From the sequence record LR025195.1: a stretch of DNA of 60,165 bases; one strand, written 5' to 3'. Numbering within the stretch: the stretch's first letter is position 1; every line of letters starts with the position of its first letter. Under the pieces are notes generated by a model that worked only from the letters and a program-made list of their open reading frames with translations, was not told the origin of the DNA and ran no database searches. The stretch comes from Escherichia phage vB_Eco_SLUR76. The position numbers and the translations under genes are program-made. Of this stretch, positions 2,628 through 26,018 are shown one piece after another.

Positions 2628-4970
2628 ATGGAACTGTTTCCCGCTGAAATTAAAGCTTTCCCACAATGGGCGGTCGCCGATGCGGACAAAAAGCCGCTGG
2701 TATGGGATAGCGATATTGGACGTTTGATGGCGGCGGACGTTACCGATCCGGATATGCTTATGACGTTTGAAGCTGCCAAAGGTTGCGCCGCTCATTTCAA
2801 TAAACCTTATATTGGATTCGTGCTTACTGCACAAGACCCGTTCACCTGCATCGACCTGGATGTGAAGAACGCAACCAATGAACCTGATCCCAAGAAACAC
2901 ACGACGCCAGAGCAGTTGCGCCGCTTCGAACAGATCATGACTGCGTTCGATACTTACACCGAAGTAAGTCGCTCAGGCCTGGGTGTCCACCTGTGGTTAA
3001 GAGGTAACATCGGTAAAGGTCGTCGACGTGATGGTGTCGAGGTTTATAGTCAGGAGCGTTTTATTATCTGCACGGGCAATCCTGTCTACAACAAACCAGT
3101 TGCAGAACGTGATCATTACCTTACTATGCTTGTGAATGAAATTGATCTTCAGCGCAAGACATATGAAATTGAACTGGTAGAAAAAGATCCGGTAGAAGAT
3201 GATGCAACTATTCATCAGCGCGCACTTGAAGCAGATAACGGCGATAAGTATGCGCGGTTATTCAATGGTGAATGGGTTGAAATGGGTTTCCCTTCCCAGT
3301 CTGAAGCAGATCTTGCCCTTATTTCTATGTATGCATTCTACACGGAAAGTAATGAGCAATGTCGTCGTCTGTTCCGTTATAGCGCACTGGGCAAACGTGA
3401 GAAGGCTAATAAGAACAATGTTCATATTGACCGTTGCTTGCGCATGTGTCGCGGTCGCATGGAGCGTGAGCGCATTGCCCAGGAAAACGTAGCGGCGCTG
3501 GCGCGGGATTATGCTGCCCGTATGCAAGCGGCACACAGTGCAATGCAGCAGGTAGCGGAAATGCCCGTAACTGTTGAAACAACACAGGGGCAGACAGTAG
3601 TTGCAGAAAGTACATCTATTGATGCAACCGCTATTGACTGGCCGCCGGGACTTGCTGGGGAGCTTGCGAAGTACATCTACAAAGCATCCGTCCGACCAGT
3701 GAAAGAAATTTCTATTGTGACAGCACTAGGATTTATGGCTGGTGTATGCGGGAAGGTTTGGCAGATTCCACAATCGGGTCTTAATGGATATTTCGTCCTT
3801 ATTGCTCGTTCTGGTGTTGGTAAAGAAACGTTGAACAGTGGGCTATCTAATATAGTTAGCCAGCTTCAGGAACCGTTTCCGCAGATTCATAGCTTTGTAT
3901 CCTTTGACCGATGCGCTTCCGGCTCCGCACTGCGTAAATCTTTTGCGGACAAACAATCTTTTATCAACTTGAACGGTGAGTTTGGTAAGATTATTAAAGC
4001 AATGGCTACGGCGCCAGCAGGTTCACCGATGCAAAGCTTCAAGAACGACCTTACCGATGTTTATCAAAAGTCCGGTCAGATGTCTATTGTCGGTGGTATG
4101 TCTTATTCTGATAAGGCTAATAATACGGAAGCTCAACAAGGTGTGGCCTATAGCATCATGGGCGAAACGACACCGGATACGTTCTTTGAAGCATTAACCC
4201 GTGAAATGATGGAGGATGGTTTCTTATCCCGTTTCCATGTTGTCCGCTATGAAGGGGATCGACCGCCTTTAAACAAGAACCAGCAGACTACAATGGATCA
4301 GCATTTGCGGGATATGGTGTGTCATCTTGTTAACCACACCTTAGTCGCAATGGCAAAGCATCAAAGTATTGAAGTGCAGTTTAGCCCGGATGCGGAAGCA
4401 TTATGCGATCAGTTTAACGATGAATGTGACCGTAATATTAACGCAACCAAAGACGAAGCGATCCGTCAGCCGTGGAACCGTGCGCACCTGAAGGTGTTAC
4501 GTCTATCCGCCCTGTTAGCTGTGGGAGAAAACTGGATCAATCCGGTTGTGCAGACCTATCATGTTCAATGGGCCTTGGACTTTGTGCGTCATGGACAGGA
4601 TATCATTATGAAGGAATGGCATAGTGGGGGTATTGGTACTAATGACGAAGCTCGTATCCGTACTATGTGCCAGGTTTGTGTCAATTATCTAACTAAAGAT
4701 TGGGTGAAAGTTAAACGTGTAGATCTGCGTAAGGAAGGAATTATCACGAGGGGTGATATTACTACTCGTCTTGCAAGTAAGTCCGCGTTTAAAAACTATC
4801 ACCACGGATTGTCCGCAGCAATTGAGTCTACGATCAAGGAGATGGTTGCTATGGGTGCTCTTGTTCCGGTAACACGGGAGGAGACTATCAAACTGGGATT
4901 CACTGGCGCAGCTTGGCGCATTACGCAAGATGTTGAAGGTATTATAGCAAACTTAGGAGAAGAGGAATAA
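2628..4970 (+). CDS. Primase-polymerase (archaeo-eukaryotic primase fold) with C-terminal P-loop/helicase-like domain
   Basis: AEP motifs CIDLDV (DxD), SGLGVHLW (SGxGxH), ERFIICTG; later P-loop-like ARSGVGKET; 780 aa. Confidence 0.6.
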   Translation: MELFPAEIKAFPQWAVADADKKPLVWDSDIGRLMAADVTDPDMLMTFEAAKGCAAHFNKPYIGFVLTAQDPFTCIDLDVKNATNEPDPKKHTTPEQLRRFEQIMTAFDTYTEVSRSGLGVHLWLRGNIGKGRRRDGVEVYSQERFIICTGNPVYNKPVAERDHYLTMLVNEIDLQRKTYEIELVEKDPVEDDATIHQRALEADNGDKYARLFNGEWVEMGFPSQSEADLALISMYAFYTESNEQCRRLFRYSALGKREKANKNNVHIDRCLRMCRGRMERERIAQENVAALARDYAARMQAAHSAMQQVAEMPVTVETTQGQTVVAESTSIDATAIDWPPGLAGELAKYIYKASVRPVKEISIVTALGFMAGVCGKVWQIPQSGLNGYFVLIARSGVGKETLNSGLSNIVSQLQEPFPQIHSFVSFDRCASGSALRKSFADKQSFINLNGEFGKIIKAMATAPAGSPMQSFKNDLTDVYQKSGQMSIVGGMSYSDKANNTEAQQGVAYSIMGETTPDTFFEALTREMMEDGFLSRFHVVRYEGDRPPLNKNQQTTMDQHLRDMVCHLVNHTLVAMAKHQSIEVQFSPDAEALCDQFNDECDRNINATKDEAIRQPWNRAHLKVLRLSALLAVGENWINPVVQTYHVQWALDFVRHGQDIIMKEWHSGGIGTNDEARIRTMCQVCVNYLTKDWVKVKRVDLRKEGIITRGDITTRLASKSAFKNYHHGLSAAIESTIKEMVAMGALVPVTREETIKLGFTGAAWRITQDVEGIIANLGEEE

Positions 4971-7851: not shown

Positions 7852-8092
7852 GCTATTTATGGGTAAACGGAAGAAAAAGTTATCAAAGCAAGTAATATCT
7901 GACATGGAACCCTATATACCTTGTCCGATACCTGAAGCGTATAAGCCTTCACCATTAATGGAGGATGCCGAATGGAGGAAGGTTGCTAGATTACTAATCC
8001 GTTTAAAAAGATTAATTGATACAGATTGAGTCTTGCCCTGTCACATGGATGTGCTATTATACATACATCGAAACACAACAGAGGATAGAAAA

Positions 8093-8503
8093 ATGTTCGA
8101 CGCAGATAAAGCAGTACAAGCAACCGAAGCAGATGTTATTGAGTGGTATAAAACCAAAGCAGAATTACAAAAGCTTCAAGCTCGCGAGCGAGCACTACGC
8201 GAAAAGATTATTAAGTCCTATTTCCCTGCTCCATCAGAAGGGACTAATAAAGTTGAAATTACTGGCGGGGTTATGAAAATGACACACAAGATTGATCGCA
8301 AGATTGATCTTCCAAGCCTTAACGGAATCCTGGGCGATCTGATTAAAGTTGGTGTTAACGTTGATCAGCTTGTGGAAAATAAACCTGTGTTGAAAGTTGC
8401 GGCTTGGCGTAAACTTACAGCGGAGCAAGCCGCAGTCTTTAACCAGTGCGTTGAATCGAAAGTTGGTTCCGCGTCTCTGGAAATTGTGCCGGATAAAGCC
8501 TAA
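8093..8503 (+). CDS. Hypothetical protein
   Basis: ATG at 8093 with RBS gaggatag. Confidence 0.55.
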   Translation: MFDADKAVQATEADVIEWYKTKAELQKLQARERALREKIIKSYFPAPSEGTNKVEITGGVMKMTHKIDRKIDLPSLNGILGDLIKVGVNVDQLVENKPVLKVAAWRKLTAEQAAVFNQCVESKVGSASLEIVPDKA

Positions 8504-17315: not shown

Positions 17316-17340
17316 TATCAAAACATATCACGTTATAATG

Positions 17341-17369
17341 AAAGCGCCCAATGAGGCGCTTTCTTTTTC
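17341..17369 (+). terminator. Rho-independent terminator
   Basis: Hairpin aaagcgcc-caatga-ggcgcttt followed by ctttttc. Confidence 0.7.
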
Positions 17370-19861: not shown

Positions 19862-20452
19862 ATGAAAGATAATTTGAATAAAATTTGGCACCAACACGAC
19901 GGTAAAGGAATGCCTATTTTTCTTCGTAATGAGAAGTTTGAAGTTCGTTTGCGCAACGGCACACACGTTAAGAATCTATTACATGGATGGGATTGGGCTA
20001 TGGAAGGGCGTTCAGCTATGGATGAAAATAGCCCTTATAAAGTTCAAGATATTATAGCCTGGCGCTATATCGTTGCGGATGATTACGTCAAACAGGCTAG
20101 CGAAAACACTCGCTCCGGATTGTACAATCAACCTTCTTCTGGAATAAGCATAAGTAATACATTTAATGGTGCGGTTTTTACGAAATACGAACCGTCTAAA
20201 ATTCCCATGAATAAATATCAGAAAGTTATTTATGGTAAAGATCAAAATGGGAATGTTGTAAAATGCATCGTGGACGTGTATGATGTCTTGGAAGCTTGGA
20301 AGACAACTAACCCAGCTTTACAACATTTGATTAAAAAGGCGTTGCAGCCTGGCGAACGCGGTCATAAGCATGTGGTAGAAGATTTGAAAGACATTATTGC
20401 GTCGGCGCAGCGTGCGTTAGAAATTGAACAGTCTAAAGAGGTATTAAAATGA
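19862..20452 (+). CDS. Hypothetical protein (inside the deazaguanine island)
   Basis: 197-aa ORF coupled between the transporter-like gene and queD; no recognisable motif. Confidence 0.55.
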   Translation: MKDNLNKIWHQHDGKGMPIFLRNEKFEVRLRNGTHVKNLLHGWDWAMEGRSAMDENSPYKVQDIIAWRYIVADDYVKQASENTRSGLYNQPSSGISISNTFNGAVFTKYEPSKIPMNKYQKVIYGKDQNGNVVKCIVDVYDVLEAWKTTNPALQHLIKKALQPGERGHKHVVEDLKDIIASAQRALEIEQSKEVLK

Positions 20453-21696: not shown

Positions 21697-21903
21697 ATGT
21701 CAAGACAATTAATTTTAGAAGCTGCATTCTACAAGCTTAAAGCAGGTACTGCGGATGCTTGCTCTGCAATACAGAATGATGCGCCTACAAATGTCTTAAA
21801 GCAGCAGCTTATTAACGCTAAACATCAAGCGGACGAAGCATTTAATAATGCATGGCGCACCTTAGAACTAATTGATCAGTTTGGAGGACCATTCCAAAAA
21901 TGA
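21697..21903 (+). CDS. Hypothetical protein
   Basis: ATG after RBS gggggaaat; the upstream ATG of the track ORF lies inside the terminator hairpin. Confidence 0.45.
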   Translation: MSRQLILEAAFYKLKAGTADACSAIQNDAPTNVLKQQLINAKHQADEAFNNAWRTLELIDQFGGPFQK

Positions 21904-22820
21904 ACGTTTTTATGGCAGCAGTTTACACAAACGGATATATGCCTGGCCAGCAGCGTTATGAAAAGCTGTCTGAGCATGAGAAAAATATCACGCGCAATCT
22001 GCCCCATATTTTGGAATCATACCACTACGTTGGACGTCAAAAGTATGTTGATCAGATGCGTGCGGACGGGGCTAAAGTGTTTCTCGACTCCGGTGCATTC
22101 TCCGCGCACTCTTTGGGTGCTCACATTGATATTGTCGAATACTGCGAATACATTAAGCGCAACAAAGACATCCTTCGCGTAGAAGATGGCGCAGTAATGG
22201 CGTCAGTGCTCGATGGCATCGGTGATCCGTTGCAAACCTACCGTAACCAGCTTGAAATGGAAGCACGCGGAGCTAAACCGTTACCTTGCTTTCACTTTGG
22301 TGAAGACTTCCGCTATCTTGAATACTACATGAAGAACTACGAATATATCACCATTGGAGGCATGGTAGGGCGTTCCACAGACACGCTTAAAACTTGGCTT
22401 GACCGCATGTGGGACAAATATATTTGCGATGGTAGCGGACGTGCTAAGATTAAGCTTCATGCGTTTGGTATTACGTCAACAACCATTATGGAGCGTTATC
22501 CGTGGTATAGCTGTGACTCATCCTCCTGGATTCAAGCGGCAGCGTTTGGAAGTGTGGTTACCCCTCCGTGGGGACCAATGCGCGTATCAGATAAGTCACC
22601 GGACCGCCATCATTTTGGTAAGCATGTTTCAACATTAACTGAAATTGAACAAGACGCTGTCCTTAAATACCTTGAGCAAAACGGTTTCACTTACGAACGT
22701 TTATCAACAATCTATGAATCACGTGCTGCCTTCAACTTATGGGCGTATGGTGTAATTGCTGCAAACATTAACGCCACCCATGACGGCACATTCCGTGATC
22801 GTGTGATGGAGTTGTTCTGA
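21900..22820 (+). CDS. dpdA: DpdA-like 7-deazaguanine DNA transglycosylase (tRNA-guanine transglycosylase superfamily)
   Basis: TGT-like motif FLDSGAF; located immediately downstream of folE, queD, queC and queE. Confidence 0.6.
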   Translation: MNVFMAAVYTNGYMPGQQRYEKLSEHEKNITRNLPHILESYHYVGRQKYVDQMRADGAKVFLDSGAFSAHSLGAHIDIVEYCEYIKRNKDILRVEDGAVMASVLDGIGDPLQTYRNQLEMEARGAKPLPCFHFGEDFRYLEYYMKNYEYITIGGMVGRSTDTLKTWLDRMWDKYICDGSGRAKIKLHAFGITSTTIMERYPWYSCDSSSWIQAAAFGSVVTPPWGPMRVSDKSPDRHHFGKHVSTLTEIEQDAVLKYLEQNGFTYERLSTIYESRAAFNLWAYGVIAANINATHDGTFRDRVMELF

Positions 22821-23047
22821 TGGCTAACTTAAGAAGACCAAAAGGTAGACGTAAATATACTCACACAGGCGTAAGAATTAATTATTACGGTGAAAACAGA
22901 GTAGTATTTCTCCACAAGACACCTAAGCAGTGGCAGGATCCGTCAGGCACATGGTTTAATGCACAAGGAAAACAAATGGGGCTTTATGGATACCCTCCAA
23001 CCTGTGAATTAGATTTAACCACAATTAGAGCAATCGAGGACCGCTAA
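22820..23047 (+). CDS. Hypothetical protein
   Basis: TGATG-coupled small ORF. Confidence 0.5.
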   Translation: MANLRRPKGRRKYTHTGVRINYYGENRVVFLHKTPKQWQDPSGTWFNAQGKQMGLYGYPPTCELDLTTIRAIEDR

Positions 23048-24000
23048 TGTTAGACGCTCTTAAATTTGTTCAAGGCTCCGTCGCTAAAAAGGAACTGGTA
23101 GAAGGGCTTACCAGCTTTCTTATCCGTGATGGACAGGTACAGGGCTTTAACGGTGTTATTGCACTGGGTAGCCCTATTGAGCTGGATATTGATTGCAAGC
23201 CCGAAGCTGGACCTATGATTAAAGCTATTTCAAACTGTGACGAAACCGTACAGTTAACAATGATGGCTAACGGTAAACTTAATATCAAGTCCGGACCATT
23301 TCGTGTTGCTATACGCTGCATTGACAAGGAAACGCCTCACGTATTCCCGGAAGGGGAGTTATACGAAATAGACGGTGCTCGCTTCGTACACGGTGTGAAG
23401 TCCGTTGCTCCGTTTGTAGGCTCAGATGCATCCCGCCCGTGGGCTTGCGGTATTCTGATTAATAACGGTAGCTTGTTTGCTACAAATAACGTCACCATTG
23501 CCGAATATTGGTTTGGTAATCAATTCCCTATTGACTGCATAATACCGTCTGTTGCTATTAAAGAAATACTGCGCATTAAAGCTAACCCGACACATATTCA
23601 GGTTAGCAAGAACAATGTGACGTTTCATTATCCGGAAGGTCGCTGGTTGCGAACACAGCTTATTGATGCGGAGTGGCCTGATATACGTCGTATTTTAAAT
23701 GTTCAATGCAATGCACATCCTGTTGATCCAGGTCTTTTTGAGGGTTTGCATAAAATTAAACCTTTTGCAGAAGATCGTCCTCGCGTATATATTGAAAACG
23801 GTCTAGCGCGTACCCATTATGACGATGCGGAAGGTGCAAGCTTCGTATTACAGGACCGCACAATAACGGGAGTGTACAATATTGACGTCCTGTTATTACT
23901 CGAAAATGTGGTTAAGACTGCGGACTTTAGTTTATATCCGCAACCTTGCGCATTCTTTGGGGAAAATCTTCGCGGTGTGTTAATTGGAGAACGTGTCTAA
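23047..24000 (+). CDS. Hypothetical protein (possible polymerase accessory or modification-associated protein)
   Basis: 317-aa ORF coupled TAATG to the upstream gene and ending on the polymerase start. Confidence 0.55.
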   Translation: MLDALKFVQGSVAKKELVEGLTSFLIRDGQVQGFNGVIALGSPIELDIDCKPEAGPMIKAISNCDETVQLTMMANGKLNIKSGPFRVAIRCIDKETPHVFPEGELYEIDGARFVHGVKSVAPFVGSDASRPWACGILINNGSLFATNNVTIAEYWFGNQFPIDCIIPSVAIKEILRIKANPTHIQVSKNNVTFHYPEGRWLRTQLIDAEWPDIRRILNVQCNAHPVDPGLFEGLHKIKPFAEDRPRVYIENGLARTHYDDAEGASFVLQDRTITGVYNIDVLLLLENVVKTADFSLYPQPCAFFGENLRGVLIGERV

Positions 24001-25985
24001 TGCGGACAGATGCTATTGGTTTCTTTTGGCAGGACTTACCGCCTGAGCCAAAAGCAAAGAAAGAAAAAGTTAAACGTTTACCGCCGGAGCGCACTTGGGA
24101 GCGCCCGGATTATTTGCCTAACCTTGAGGAAGCGCGGAACTTCCAATACAACCTGTATACACAGGATGAACTTATTCAAGCATGGATTAACCGCGAACCG
24201 CTTGTATACGATATCGAATGTTATCCAAACTATTTCTTAATTGCATTTCGCGGAGTACGAACTAAGAAAGTTGTCTACTTCGAGATGTATCACGGTTGTA
24301 GTTTGAATTGCTTGCTACTTAACTGGGTAATGACAAACTTCCTTATCGTGAGCTTTAACGGTAATGGGTACGATATGTCCATTGCTACGCTTGCGCTTAA
24401 CGGCTGCTCTAATGCTCAGCTTAAAGACGCAACTGATAAAATAATCGTTGAAGACTGGCGTCCTTCGGATGTATTGAAGAGTTACCGTCTCAAGCGTATG
24501 CAGAACGTTAACCACATCGATATTATGGAAGTGCTGCCTGGGTCCGGTGGTTTGAAACAATATGGCGGACGTGTACATACTCGTCGTATGCAGGATTTAC
24601 CGTTCAAGCCCAATACAATGTTGACGCAAGACCAGATGCTTATTGTGCGCTGGTACTGTATTAACGACCTTGTACAGACGGAAGAATGTTTTATTGCATT
24701 ACAAGAGCCTATTCACTTGCGTGAAATTATGTCGCAAGAGTACGGTGTGGACCTGCGTTCACGCTCCGATGCACAGATTGCAGAAGACGTGATTAAGCAC
24801 GAAATTCAAGCGTTAACGGGCGTGCGCCCACAGCGTCCGCAAGTTTATCCTGGAACAAAGTATGCATACAACATACCGGACTTTATTCGTTTTCAAACAC
24901 CTTTGATGAATAGTGTTCTGGATATTGTTCGGGACTGTCGCTTTATTGTTAGCGATAACGGTGGTGTCAGCTTACCTCCAGCATTAACAGGTCTTGAGAT
25001 CAAGATTGCAGACGGTGTCTACCGTATGGGTATTGGTGGTTTACATAGCTCCGAAGAGTGCGCTGGCCACGGTAAAGAGCCTGGTATCAAAAAGCGGGAC
25101 ATTGACGTAACGTCTTATTATCCTTCAATCATTCTTAATCAGGGCTTATATCCAGAACAGTTGGGACCAGCGTTCCTTCGTGTTTATAAGAGTATTGTAG
25201 ATCGTCGTATTGCAGCTAAGCACTCAGGGGATAAGAACACAGCCAACACGCTGAAGATCGTTATCAACGGATCGTTCGGTAAGTTGGGGTCCATGTGGTC
25301 TGTACTGTACGCGCCCCAATTATTGATACAAGTTACATTAACCGGACAGCTTTCACTGTTGATGCTTATTGAAGCGTTTGAGCTGAACGGTGTTAAAGTA
25401 ATTTCAGCCAACACGGATGGTATTGTGGTCAAGTATCCGGACCATATGCAGGACTTCGTTGATAATATGATCAAGTGGTGGGAATCCGTAACAGGTTTTG
25501 AAATGGAATCCAACTACTATGACAAGCTGTACAGTGCTAACGTCAATAACTATGTTGCCGTAAAAGAACCTGACGAGGAAGGAAATGTTGAAATTAAACG
25601 TAAAGGCTGGTTCGCAAAGACAGGTCTTCAAAAGAACTGTACTGGTGAGATCATTATGGAAGCTGTATGCGAATGTTTGGCCCACGGTACGCCTGTTTCT
25701 CGTACTATACGCAATTGCAACGATATTAGAAAATTCATTATCCTACGTGCGGTAAAAGGCGGCGCGGTATGGAATGGCGAATTTTTGGGTAAGGTTGTAC
25801 GCTGGTACTTAAGCACTAATGAAGAAACACCTGAAATAATCTATGCTAACACGGGCAACCGTGTAGCTGGTAGCGCGGGAGGTGTTCCGATCATGACGCT
25901 ACCGGATAAAGTGCCGGACGACATAGATTATGATGCTTATATAGCTAAAGCAGAGAAGTATCTCGAAGACATGGGATACGCCTAA
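24000..25985 (+). CDS. DNA polymerase with 3'-5' exonuclease domain, family-B-type motifs
   Basis: Exo I YDIE; Pol motif A DVTSYYPSII; motif B KIVINGSFGKLG; motif C ANTDGIVV. Confidence 0.75.
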   Translation: MRTDAIGFFWQDLPPEPKAKKEKVKRLPPERTWERPDYLPNLEEARNFQYNLYTQDELIQAWINREPLVYDIECYPNYFLIAFRGVRTKKVVYFEMYHGCSLNCLLLNWVMTNFLIVSFNGNGYDMSIATLALNGCSNAQLKDATDKIIVEDWRPSDVLKSYRLKRMQNVNHIDIMEVLPGSGGLKQYGGRVHTRRMQDLPFKPNTMLTQDQMLIVRWYCINDLVQTEECFIALQEPIHLREIMSQEYGVDLRSRSDAQIAEDVIKHEIQALTGVRPQRPQVYPGTKYAYNIPDFIRFQTPLMNSVLDIVRDCRFIVSDNGGVSLPPALTGLEIKIADGVYRMGIGGLHSSEECAGHGKEPGIKKRDIDVTSYYPSIILNQGLYPEQLGPAFLRVYKSIVDRRIAAKHSGDKNTANTLKIVINGSFGKLGSMWSVLYAPQLLIQVTLTGQLSLLMLIEAFELNGVKVISANTDGIVVKYPDHMQDFVDNMIKWWESVTGFEMESNYYDKLYSANVNNYVAVKEPDEEGNVEIKRKGWFAKTGLQKNCTGEIIMEAVCECLAHGTPVSRTIRNCNDIRKFIILRAVKGGAVWNGEFLGKVVRWYLSTNEETPEIIYANTGNRVAGSAGGVPIMTLPDKVPDDIDYDAYIAKAEKYLEDMGYA

Positions 25986-25994
25986 ATTCTACTT

Positions 25995-26018
25995 GCAGAC
26001 CCTTCGCGGGTCTGTTTT
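25995..26018 (+). terminator. Rho-independent terminator
   Basis: Hairpin gcagaccc-ttcg-cgggtctg followed by tttt. Confidence 0.65.

What the first reader, a model, noticed from the sequence alone, without database searches (positions are those of the whole stretch)
22820..24000. Unassigned ORFs between the DpdA-like transglycosylase and the DNA polymerase
A 75-aa and a 317-aa ORF are chained by TGATG/TAATG overlaps from the dpdA-like gene straight into the polymerase gene. This coupling could link modification to replication. The 317-aa protein could be a polymerase accessory or clamp-like factor, or a partner that targets the transglycosylase to DNA.
Basis: inference. Interest (0 to 1): 0.5.

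Follow-up and report, generated by a model that had tools for sequence, protein, structure and literature searches.

The report
Phage sliding clamp next to DpdA
The 317-aa gene is a phage version of the bacterial ring-shaped sliding clamp that holds the neighbouring DNA polymerase on DNA (public annotation already says so), the 75-aa gene is a small orphan of unknown role, and a conserved clamp-binding-like tail on the DNA-modifying enzyme DpdA hints that the same clamp may also carry the modification enzyme.

Summary
The window is the whole genome of Escherichia phage vB_Eco_SLUR26 (Seuratvirus). The ORFs and their TGATG/TAATG overlaps are exactly as described. Such overlaps occur at 15 of 40 plus-strand junctions in this genome, so the chaining alone carries no weight.

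The 317-aa protein is a three-domain DnaN-type beta sliding clamp. Its AlphaFold model has pLDDT 93, and Foldseek matches only beta clamps (E 8e-20, TM 0.83). GenBank and PHROGs already name it a polymerase processivity factor. It always sits directly upstream of a Pol II-like family-B polymerase, including in phage genera that lack dpdA. No clamp loader is encoded.

The 75-aa protein is a real gene (dN/dS about 0.1). It is basic, all-beta, and restricted to Seuratvirus. It occupies a junction that is empty or holds unrelated small ORFs in sister genera. Its function remains unknown.

One result appears new. All 74 distinct Queuovirinae-type DpdA sequences end in a conserved [VI]-Q-E-L-F tail (VMELF here) that resembles the beta-clamp-binding motif QL[SD]LF. 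A second DpdA clade (Dp-1 type) also ends in LF and also lies upstream of a clamp gene. Actinophage DpdAs have neither feature and sit beside a ParB-like gene instead. Tethering of DpdA to the clamp is therefore plausible but untested.

The parts
21900..22820 (+). dpdA: DNA 7-deazaguanine transglycosylase, 306 aa
   Evidence: PHROG 887 at E 8e-96. Identical to the Seuratvirus DpdA of slur01 and Seurat. In the close relative CAjan (region 96% identical), deleting dpdA abolishes dPreQ0 (PMC6884629, PMC7544227).
22803..22817 (+). C-terminal VMELF tail of DpdA: candidate clamp-binding motif (inferred)
   Evidence: All 74 distinct homologues carry L-[FY] within the last 7 residues, 64 of them at the exact C-terminus. 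Consensus is F-x-x-R-[VI]-Q-E-L-F. Entropy is 0-1.4 bits at the last four positions against 2.7-3.5 bits at positions -13 to -6. DpdA is the only one of 41 plus-strand proteins of this phage with such a tail.
22820..23047 (+). 75-aa small basic all-beta protein, Seuratvirus-specific, function unknown
23047..24000 (+). Three-domain beta-type (DnaN-like) sliding clamp, 317 aa
   Evidence: PHROG 947 at E 7e-82. AlphaFold pLDDT 93, pTM 0.87, with two helices in each of three domains. The Foldseek top 50 are all beta clamps, E 8e-20, TM 0.76-0.84. The PDB profile search reaches 4trt at E 4e-5. hhalign against E. coli beta gives E 1.6e-5. pI 5.56.
24000..25985 (+). Family-B DNA polymerase of the Pol II-like 'NTDG' phage subgroup, 661 aa
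   Evidence: PHROG 1252 at E 1e-227. Exonuclease motif YDIECY and polymerase motifs DVTSYYPS, KIVINGSFGKLG and SANTDGIVV can be read in the sequence and are conserved in alignment A4. The NTDG subgroup is defined in PMC3201878.
24009..24029 (+). N-terminal DAIGFFW peptide of PolB: candidate clamp-binding motif (inferred)
   Evidence: G-[FLIM]-[FW]-W lies within the first 60 residues of all 69 distinct PolB homologues. An [FL]F-type N-terminus is also present in dpdA-less genera.
25995..26015 (+). Terminator-like hairpin closing the queE-to-polB transcription unit
   Evidence: An 8-bp GC-rich stem followed by a T run, 10 nt after the polB stop. The previous strong plus-strand hairpin is at 17340-17363. 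Two related records annotate a terminator within the matched region. The scan's total count is not above chance, so this is positional evidence only.

Best explanation
The 317-aa ORF encodes a divergent, compact member of the bacterial beta (DnaN) sliding-clamp superfamily. It most likely forms a head-to-tail homodimeric ring (three domains per subunit) that encircles DNA. Its likely role is as processivity factor for the Pol II-like family-B polymerase encoded immediately downstream, probably by binding the polymerase's conserved N-terminal DAIGFFW peptide in the canonical hydrophobic pocket. The phage encodes no clamp loader, so the ring is presumably loaded by the host DnaX complex. dpdA, the 75-aa gene, the clamp gene and polB are the last four genes of one early/middle operon that begins with the preQ0 synthesis genes and ends at a hairpin after polB. 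Their start/stop overlaps are normal operon packing. The 75-aa gene is a lineage-specific small basic beta protein inserted at a junction that is variable among related phages. It is not a conserved part of the dpdA-clamp-polB module, and its role is unknown; the most likely reading is a dispensable nucleic-acid-binding or replication accessory factor.

Shown: the fold, the homology, the synteny, the motif conservation and the absence of a loader gene. Inferred: ring formation, the PolB contact and loading by the host.
For: Fold: AlphaFold pLDDT 93. Foldseek against the PDB gives only beta clamps, E 8e-20, TM 0.83 over the full length.

Sequence: PHROG 947 at E 7e-82. PDB profile hits to beta clamps at E 4e-5. 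TIGR00663 dnaN at E 1e-8. hhalign against E. coli beta at E 1.6e-5 aligns the family-invariant ATNN (145-148) with ATDGH (171-175), and WPDIRRIL (210-217) with FPDYRRVL (241-248). By my recollection, not checked here, these E. coli segments line the peptide-binding pocket.

Charge: pI 5.56, acidic like ring clamps (E. coli beta 5.25), not basic like loader-independent clamp homologues.

Synteny: the clamp gene lies directly upstream of polB in Seuratvirus, Nonagvirus, Nipunavirus, Vidquintavirus, Iggyvirus, Vibrio and Rhizobium phages. The same holds in the dpdA-less genera Septimatrevirus, Lokivirus and Rosemountvirus. The order is kept in 74 of 74 metagenomic loci.

PolB: NTDG motif (Pol II-like subgroup). 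The N-terminal G[FL]FW motif is present in 69 of 69 distinct sequences.

No loader: the only ATPase candidates are an AAA_24 (Sak4-like) protein and helicases.

75-aa gene: present only in Seuratvirus. Sister genera have nothing or unrelated ORFs at that junction.
Against: No experiment exists for this clamp family. Dimerisation, ring closure and loading could not be modelled with the tools available. Curated DnaN models are not reached: Pfam gives 22 bits against a cut-off of 27 and matches the central domain only, and TIGR00663 gives 34 bits against 137. hhalign did not align domain III. The PolB N-terminal peptide is only motif-level evidence of a contact. The 75-aa gene is under purifying selection, which argues against it being junk. 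However, natural frameshifted or truncated alleles exist in phage Seurat, P0126, P0128 and L017.
Confidence: 0.85

Rival explanations
1. Extension rather than exclusion: the clamp is also the DNA-targeting platform for DpdA. DpdA binds the clamp pocket through its C-terminal VMELF tail and rides on clamps left on newly replicated DNA. This would couple G-to-preQ0 base exchange to replication and replace the ParB-like ATPase DpdB that bacterial DpdA needs.
For: The tail is conserved in 74 of 74 distinct DpdA sequences, follows a variable segment, and sits at the exact C-terminus in 64. It resembles the beta-clamp motif QL(S/D)LF, which is typically C-terminal (PMC9690074); some members are near-canonical (QMELF, QMELL). 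dpdA lies upstream of the clamp gene in 74 of 74 loci and abuts it in 42. An independent DpdA clade (Dp-1/Flasso, about 30% identity) ends in LF in 24 of 25 unfused members. It has a different, DnaN-type clamp gene downstream in 23 loci. Actinophage DpdAs have no tail and no clamp but a ParB-like neighbour. Bacterial DpdA requires the DNA-encircling ParB-like DpdB (PMC10164549). A beta clamp stimulating a base-excision enzyme has a precedent in M. tuberculosis Nei2. No paper in the searchable library links DpdA and clamps.
Against: The evidence is purely correlative, and phylogeny confounds it: there are effectively two or three independent clades. Q sits at -3 rather than -4 in most Queuovirinae, and SLUR26 has no Q at all. 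Phage DpdA2 enzymes expressed alone in E. coli modify plasmids (PMC10516641). So a phage clamp is not strictly required for that subfamily, though host beta could serve. DNA-metabolism genes cluster in phages in any case.
Confidence: 0.35
2. The 75-aa protein is a functional adaptor or specificity factor for the module. For example, it could bridge DpdA and the clamp, or add the second (GGC) target motif reported for CAjan DpdA.
For: It is translationally chained between dpdA and the clamp gene. It is under purifying selection. It is basic, with an RRPKGRRK tail. Kot et al. draw it as the last gene of the 12-gene 7-deazaguanine cluster of CAjan. CAjan modifies both GA and GGC, whereas Iggy, which lacks this gene, modifies only GA (abstracts). 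Distant 64-aa relatives overlap the start of a RepB-primase gene, which is also a replication context.
Against: It is absent from every other genus that keeps dpdA-clamp-polB. The junction is an insertion hot spot holding unrelated ORFs. Truncated alleles occur in viable phages such as Seurat. Its QMGLY stretch is not conserved. It has no fold or family match with a known function.
Confidence: 0.12
3. The clamp homologue is a host-takeover factor rather than a processivity factor. For example, it could poison host beta by forming heterodimers, or sequester host clamp-binding proteins.
For: No cognate loader is encoded. The pocket-lining motifs resemble those of host beta.
Against: The gene is invariably paired with a phage polymerase gene across many genera and hosts. 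The polymerase has a co-conserved terminal motif. Identity to host beta is only about 15-17%, which makes heterodimer formation unlikely.
Confidence: 0.04

Closest known systems
Bacterial beta sliding clamp DnaN (e.g. E. coli beta, PDB 6FVM/7AZC; P. aeruginosa 4TSZ)
   Same: Three-domain fold over the full length (TM 0.83). Acidic pI. Conserved ATxx and [FW]PDxRR[VI]L segments that align with E. coli beta segments which, by my recollection, line the peptide-binding pocket. C-terminal ...GMRx consensus resembling ...PMRL.
   Different: 317 aa rather than about 366 aa. Only 13-17% identity. Below the Pfam and TIGRFAM thresholds. Partner is a family-B polymerase rather than Pol III alpha. No cognate loader in the genome.
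Phage 'replicative clamp' family, PHROG 947 (e.g. 9g/JenP1 gp31, Pseudomonas phages NP1 and Ab26 ORF27)
   Same: This is the family the gene belongs to (E 7e-82). The gene order clamp then polB is the same.
   Different: None in kind. The family is annotated by homology only, and I found no biochemical study of it.
E. coli Pol II with the beta clamp (family-B polymerase using a beta-type clamp through a terminal QLGLF motif; my own knowledge for the motif)
   Same: A Pol II-like 'NTDG' PolB is paired with a beta-type clamp. A short hydrophobic terminal peptide is the presumed contact.
   Different: The candidate motif here is N-terminal (DAIGFFW) rather than C-terminal. Related dpdA-less phages (Ab26 ...AALSFF) have a C-terminal one as well or instead.
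Bacterial DpdA-DpdB (Salmonella Montevideo Dpd system)
   Same: A DNA transglycosylase that needs, or appears to have, a DNA-encircling partner encoded next to it.
   Different: The partner there is a ParB-like ATPase dimer. Here it would be a passive sliding clamp, contacted through a short tail. Phage DpdA scores only 17 bits against the DpdA equivalog NF041059, whose cut-off is 200.
Clamp-tethered DNA modification or repair enzymes (M. tuberculosis Nei2 with beta clamp; eukaryotic DNMT1 with PCNA, the latter from my own knowledge)
   Same: The concept is an enzyme acting on bases in duplex DNA that is recruited to newly replicated DNA through a clamp-binding motif.
   Different: No such link has been reported for 7-deazaguanine insertion. 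Here it is inference only.

Membership tests
Beta sliding clamp superfamily (DnaN fold) | Three topologically equivalent beta-alpha-beta domains in one chain | tested here: met
   The AlphaFold model (pLDDT 93) has two helices plus beta sheets in each of three roughly 105-residue domains. The Foldseek top 50 are all beta clamps, TM 0.76-0.84.
Beta sliding clamp superfamily (DnaN fold) | Match to curated sequence models (Pfam DNA_pol3_beta N/central/C; TIGR00663 dnaN) above threshold | tested here: not met
   Only the central domain matches, at 22.3 bits against a cut-off of 27. TIGR00663 gives 34.2 bits against 137.65. The protein is therefore a remote superfamily member, not a DnaN equivalog.
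Beta sliding clamp superfamily (DnaN fold) | Head-to-tail homodimer forming a closed ring around DNA | not testable with these tools
   No multimer prediction was available. The acidic pI of 5.56 is consistent with ring clamps rather than direct DNA binders.
Beta sliding clamp superfamily (DnaN fold) | Conserved hydrophobic peptide-binding pocket between domains II and III | tested here: inconclusive
   hhalign places family-invariant A145-T146-N147-N148 and W210-P211...L217 opposite E. coli ATDGH (171-175) and FPDYRRVL (241-248). That these E. coli segments line the pocket is from my own knowledge. Domain III was not aligned, and no peptide docking was done.
Beta sliding clamp superfamily (DnaN fold) | Cognate clamp loader (DnaX/RFC-type AAA+) | tested here: not met
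   None is annotated in the 92 CDS. The only small ATPase is AAA_24, Sak4-like. Loading by the host is inferred.
PHROG 947 'DNA polymerase processivity factor' | Full-length profile match | tested here: met
   E 6.9e-82, residues 1-317 against profile positions 12-365 of 368.
Pol II-like phage PolB ('PolIIphages', Kazlauskas & Venclovas 2011) | NTDG in polymerase motif C, plus Exo I-III and motifs A and B | tested here: met
   SANTDGIVV, YDIECY, DVTSYYPS and KIVINGSFGKLG are read in the sequence. D71, E73, N471, T472 and G474 are invariant in alignment A4. The definition is in PMC3201878.
Beta-clamp-binding motif (QL[SD]LF-type) in DpdA | Penta- or hexapeptide with L-F (or L-L) at positions 4-5, a small or acidic residue at 3 and Q at 1, on a terminal unstructured segment | tested here: inconclusive
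   SLUR26 has VMELF at the exact C-terminus. The family consensus is [VI]QELF, with L in 74 of 74, F in 71 of 74 and E/D in 67 of 74. Q is offset by one position or absent. Disorder of the tail was not tested.
Beta-clamp-binding motif (QL[SD]LF-type) in DpdA | Physical binding to the clamp pocket | not testable with these tools
   This needs AF-multimer, ITC or a pull-down.
PHROG 38388 (75-aa protein) | Full-length profile match | tested here: met
   E 3.1e-57, positions 1-75 of 75, function unknown. Weak links to phrog_1226 and phrog_5148, both also of unknown function.

The most novel reading that the evidence does not exclude
Phage DpdA enzymes of the Queuovirinae and Dp-1 types are sliding-clamp clients. 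Their conserved C-terminal ...ELF / ...xLF tail docks in the pocket of the phage-encoded beta clamp (or host beta). 7-deazaguanine base exchange would then be physically coupled to the replication fork or to clamps left on nascent DNA. The clamp would play the role that the DNA-encircling ParB-like ATPase DpdB plays for bacterial and actinophage DpdA. This could explain how these phages replace 15-30% of their G residues without a DpdB.
Probability: 0.35. Interest if true: 0.75.

Novelty: new member of a known kind. Interest (0 to 1): 0.45.

Why it matters
On its own, the finding resolves to an ordinary and already annotated replication gene plus one orphan. It still matters for two reasons.

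First, it documents a large phage clamp family that has not been studied experimentally: at least 536 protein clusters and 359 phage genomes. The family pairs a beta-type clamp with a Pol II-like polymerase and has no loader. That raises a concrete question about how host loaders are hijacked.

Second, the conserved LF-COOH tail of DpdA and its fixed position upstream of clamp genes in two DpdA clades give a directly testable hypothesis. The hypothesis addresses how hypermodifying transglycosylases reach their DNA substrate at high density. It would also link an anti-restriction DNA modification to replication, as DNMT1-PCNA does in eukaryotes.

Tried and rejected
1. 75-aa protein, sequence searches. 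Pfam and NCBIfam gave nothing. An exhaustive HMMER profile search of 1.84 billion representatives gave only 6 hits. Two were spurious matches to repeat proteins (Kelch/Hint and Kringle) and were rejected. A second iterative search gave 15 family members, none annotated.

3. A clamp-binding motif in the 75-aa protein (QMGLY) was rejected. Its last positions vary (Y, N, R, G), and truncated alleles lose the region.

4. Homology among the small ORFs that occupy the dpdA-clamp junction in other genera: none was found (all-vs-all BLASTP).

5. The primase N-terminus MELF as a third clamp client. It is conserved in JenP1 but not in NP1 or Iggy, so it is kept only as a note.

6. Phage clamp loader: none was found.

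7. PDB relatives of phage DpdA by sequence: none at E of 0.01 or better. The position of the tail relative to a solved fold could therefore not be judged.

8. Literature. No paper links DpdA with sliding clamps. The Dp-1 host two-hybrid table lists no orf7-DnaN pair. The Dp-1 intraviral interactome paper is not held.

9. Promoter scan. The number of sigma-70-like sites is not above chance (24 against 27.5 expected), so no promoter is claimed.

10. I first read the phiSM gene ending in NLF as part of DpdA. Pfam shows it is a ParB_N-like neighbour instead, and this was corrected.
Full report
**What the window is.** The 60,165-bp window is 100% identical to Escherichia phage vB_Eco_SLUR26 (LR025198.1; Queuovirinae, Seuratvirus). 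Record coordinates equal window coordinates plus 2. It is about 96% identical across this region to phage CAjan, the experimental model for dPreQ0-modified DNA.

**Observation.**
- dpdA, 21900-22820
- a 75-aa ORF, 22820-23047
- a 317-aa ORF, 23047-24000
- polB, 24000-25985

The junctions read TGATG (22818-22822), TAATG (23045-23049) and TAATG (23998-24002). Each start has a GGAG or GAGGA 6-10 nt upstream.

Two corrections are needed. First, such overlaps occur at 15 of the 40 plus-strand junctions of this genome (tables). They are normal operon packing and carry no specific message. Second, the 317-aa ORF is not unassigned. GenBank calls it 'DNA polymerase beta subunit' and PHROG 947 calls it 'DNA polymerase processivity factor'.

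Strong terminator-like hairpins at 17340-17363 and 25995-26015 bracket the queE-to-polB block. The promoter scan was not above chance, so no promoter is claimed.

**The 317-aa protein is a beta-type sliding clamp.**
- Sequence evidence is remote but consistent. Pfam DNA_pol3_beta_2 gives E 1.7e-4, below threshold. TIGR00663 dnaN gives E 1.3e-8, at 34 bits against a cut-off of 137. A 34-sequence family profile hits PDB beta clamps at E 4e-5.
- An AlphaFold model built on that alignment is confident: pLDDT 93, pTM 0.87. It shows three repeats of a two-helix/beta-sheet domain.
- Foldseek against the PDB returns only DnaN clamps among the top 50, at E 8e-20 and TM up to 0.84 over the full length.
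- hhalign against E. coli beta (E 1.6e-5) places the family-invariant ATNN (145-148) opposite ATDGH (171-175). It places WPDIRRIL (210-217) opposite FPDYRRVL (241-248). By my recollection, not checked here, these E. coli segments line the peptide-binding pocket.
- The protein is acidic, with pI 5.56. The family mostly falls between 5.1 and 6.2, and E. coli beta is 5.25. By the argument of Kazlauskas and Venclovas (PMC3201878), this fits a ring that needs loading rather than a direct DNA binder.
- No clamp loader is encoded. The only small ATPase is AAA_24, which is Sak4-like.

**It belongs with the polymerase.** The family is large: at least 536 protein clusters and 359 phage records. The clamp gene lies directly upstream of polB in Seuratvirus (yong3), Nonagvirus, Nipunavirus, Vidquintavirus, Iggyvirus, Vibrio and Rhizobium phages. 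The same holds in genera that have no dpdA at all: Septimatrevirus, Lokivirus and Rosemountvirus.

PolB carries Exo I-III, motifs A and B, and the 'NTDG' motif C that defines the Pol II-like phage subgroup. All 69 distinct PolB homologues carry an N-terminal G-[FLIM]-[FW]-W peptide; here it is DAIGFFW, residues 4-10. The dpdA-less relatives have [FL]F-type termini as well. I infer, but have not shown, that this peptide is the clamp contact.

**The 75-aa protein.**
- It is a real gene. dN/dS is 0.17 and 0.08 against two relatives, the second at dS 0.45.
- It is basic, with pI 10.0. It has an RRPKGRRK N-terminal tail and a small all-beta domain (AlphaFold pLDDT 82.6).
- It is confined to Seuratvirus: 35 phage records. 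An exhaustive search of 1.84 billion representatives gave 6 hits at E of 0.001 or better, 4 of them credible, and a second search gave 15 family members.
- In JenP1 and NP1, dpdA abuts the clamp gene directly. Vid5, Iggy, Vibrio AL-2, RHEph05, yong3 and a metagenomic relative carry one to three unrelated small ORFs at that junction.
- Over 74 loci, 42 have dpdA abutting the clamp gene and 32 have insertions of up to 1.9 kb. The junction is therefore an insertion hot spot.
- Truncated or frameshifted alleles exist in phage Seurat and three other sequences.
- Distant 64-aa relatives overlap the start of a RepB-primase gene.
- Kot et al. draw the CAjan homologue as the last, unassigned gene of the 12-gene deazaguanine cluster and did not delete it.

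Its function remains unknown. My best guess is a dispensable nucleic-acid-binding accessory.

**The unexpected part: DpdA has a clamp-binding-like tail.** DpdA of SLUR26 ends ...FRDRVMELF. Across ten genera the extreme C-terminus is conserved while the preceding residues vary.

In 74 distinct sequences, L is invariant, F occurs in 71 (Y in 3), E/D in 67 and Q in 51. The motif is the exact C-terminus in 64. Entropy is 0-1.4 bits at the last four positions against 2.7-3.5 bits at positions -13 to -6. DpdA is the only one of 41 plus-strand proteins of this phage with such a tail.

The bacterial beta-clamp-binding consensus is QL(S/D)LF, typically C-terminal (PMC9690074). Some DpdA tails are near-canonical: QMELF in a Stenotrophomonas phage and QMELL-G in Achromobacter phage ART.

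dpdA lies upstream of the clamp gene on the same strand in 74 of 74 loci.

A second DpdA clade (Streptococcus phage Dp-1, Bacillus phage Flasso) shares about 30% identity with the first. It ends in x-[KR]-x-L-F in 24 of 25 unfused members. It has a different, bona fide DnaN-type clamp gene 12-3400 nt downstream in 23 loci.

Five actinophage DpdAs (Qyrzula, Hilltopfarm, Megan x2, Mufasa8) have no such tail and no clamp nearby. Three of these phages (Qyrzula, Hilltopfarm, Mufasa8) have a ParB-like gene next to or near dpdA. Bacterial DpdA strictly needs DpdB, a ParB-like ATPase dimer modelled as encircling DNA (PMC10164549).

The pattern suggests that DpdA enzymes use a DNA-encircling partner, and that in Queuovirinae this partner is the sliding clamp. 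I found no paper making this link.

Several caveats apply:
- The independent clades are few.
- The variable linker is short, so the tail could be an intramolecular or dimer contact.
- Q is offset or missing in many tails.
- DpdA2 enzymes modify plasmids in E. coli without any phage partner.

I put this reading at about 0.35.

**Verdict.** The overlap chain is not informative. The 75-aa gene stays an orphan. The module works like a Pol II/beta-clamp pair borrowed by a phage and loaded by the host. The possible recruitment of DpdA to that clamp is the only element that would surprise a specialist, and it can be tested with peptide-binding assays and a five-residue truncation in CAjan.

Noticed in passing
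window 2628-4970: The primase/helicase begins MELFPAEIK, the same M-E-L-F as the C-terminus of DpdA. JenP1 primase begins MLELFPQEIK, but NP1 and Iggy primases do not share it. It may be a third clamp-contact peptide or a coincidence.
   Followed up: partly
L099 1-1919; L103 202-2050; L105 7935-9465: In actinophages (Qyrzula, Hilltopfarm, Mufasa8) dpdA lies next to or one small ORF away from a ParB-like nuclease-domain gene rather than a clamp gene. This mirrors the bacterial DpdA-DpdB pair. These DpdAs lack the LF tail.
   Followed up: partly
L100 3129-4303 and 6373-7455: In Cellulophaga phage phiSM the 240-aa DpdA-like gene is followed by a 154-aa ParB_N-like protein (E 6e-5, below threshold). 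That protein itself ends ...SVNLF, and a DnaN gene lies four genes further on.
   Followed up: partly
L017 about 7921-8147; phage Seurat (P0125); P0126, P0128: Some relatives carry frameshifted or truncated alleles of the 75-aa ORF. L017 has a 1-nt deletion in the C-terminal third. This is either sequencing error or evidence that the C-terminal strand is dispensable.
   Followed up: partly
L008 6363-6947; L012 4484-5074; L013 4475-4828: The clamp-polB junction is also an insertion site in some relatives. It holds a 194-aa ORF in a Seuratvirus-like contig, a 'GTP-binding domain' ORF plus a 68-aa ORF in Iggy, and a DUF2493 ORF in Vibrio phage AL-2.
   Followed up: no
L106 7863-8588: The DpdA-like gp11 of the Hollowayvirus Epa33 ends ...GQAELSL. 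This resembles the hexapeptide type of beta-clamp motif (QLxLxL). No phage clamp gene was found within the 15.6-kb stretch examined.
   Followed up: no
L125, L127, L129, L130 (DpdA ORFs of 522-540 aa): Some Dp-1-type DpdAs are fused to a C-terminal extension of about 220 aa and end in ...GF or ...GFNS/GFNF instead of LF.
   Followed up: no
window 19862-20452 and 21697-21903: Two further unassigned ORFs (196 aa and 68 aa) sit inside the preQ0/dpdA cluster, between yhhQ and queD and just upstream of dpdA. They are part of the 12-gene CAjan cluster with no function assigned.
   Followed up: no
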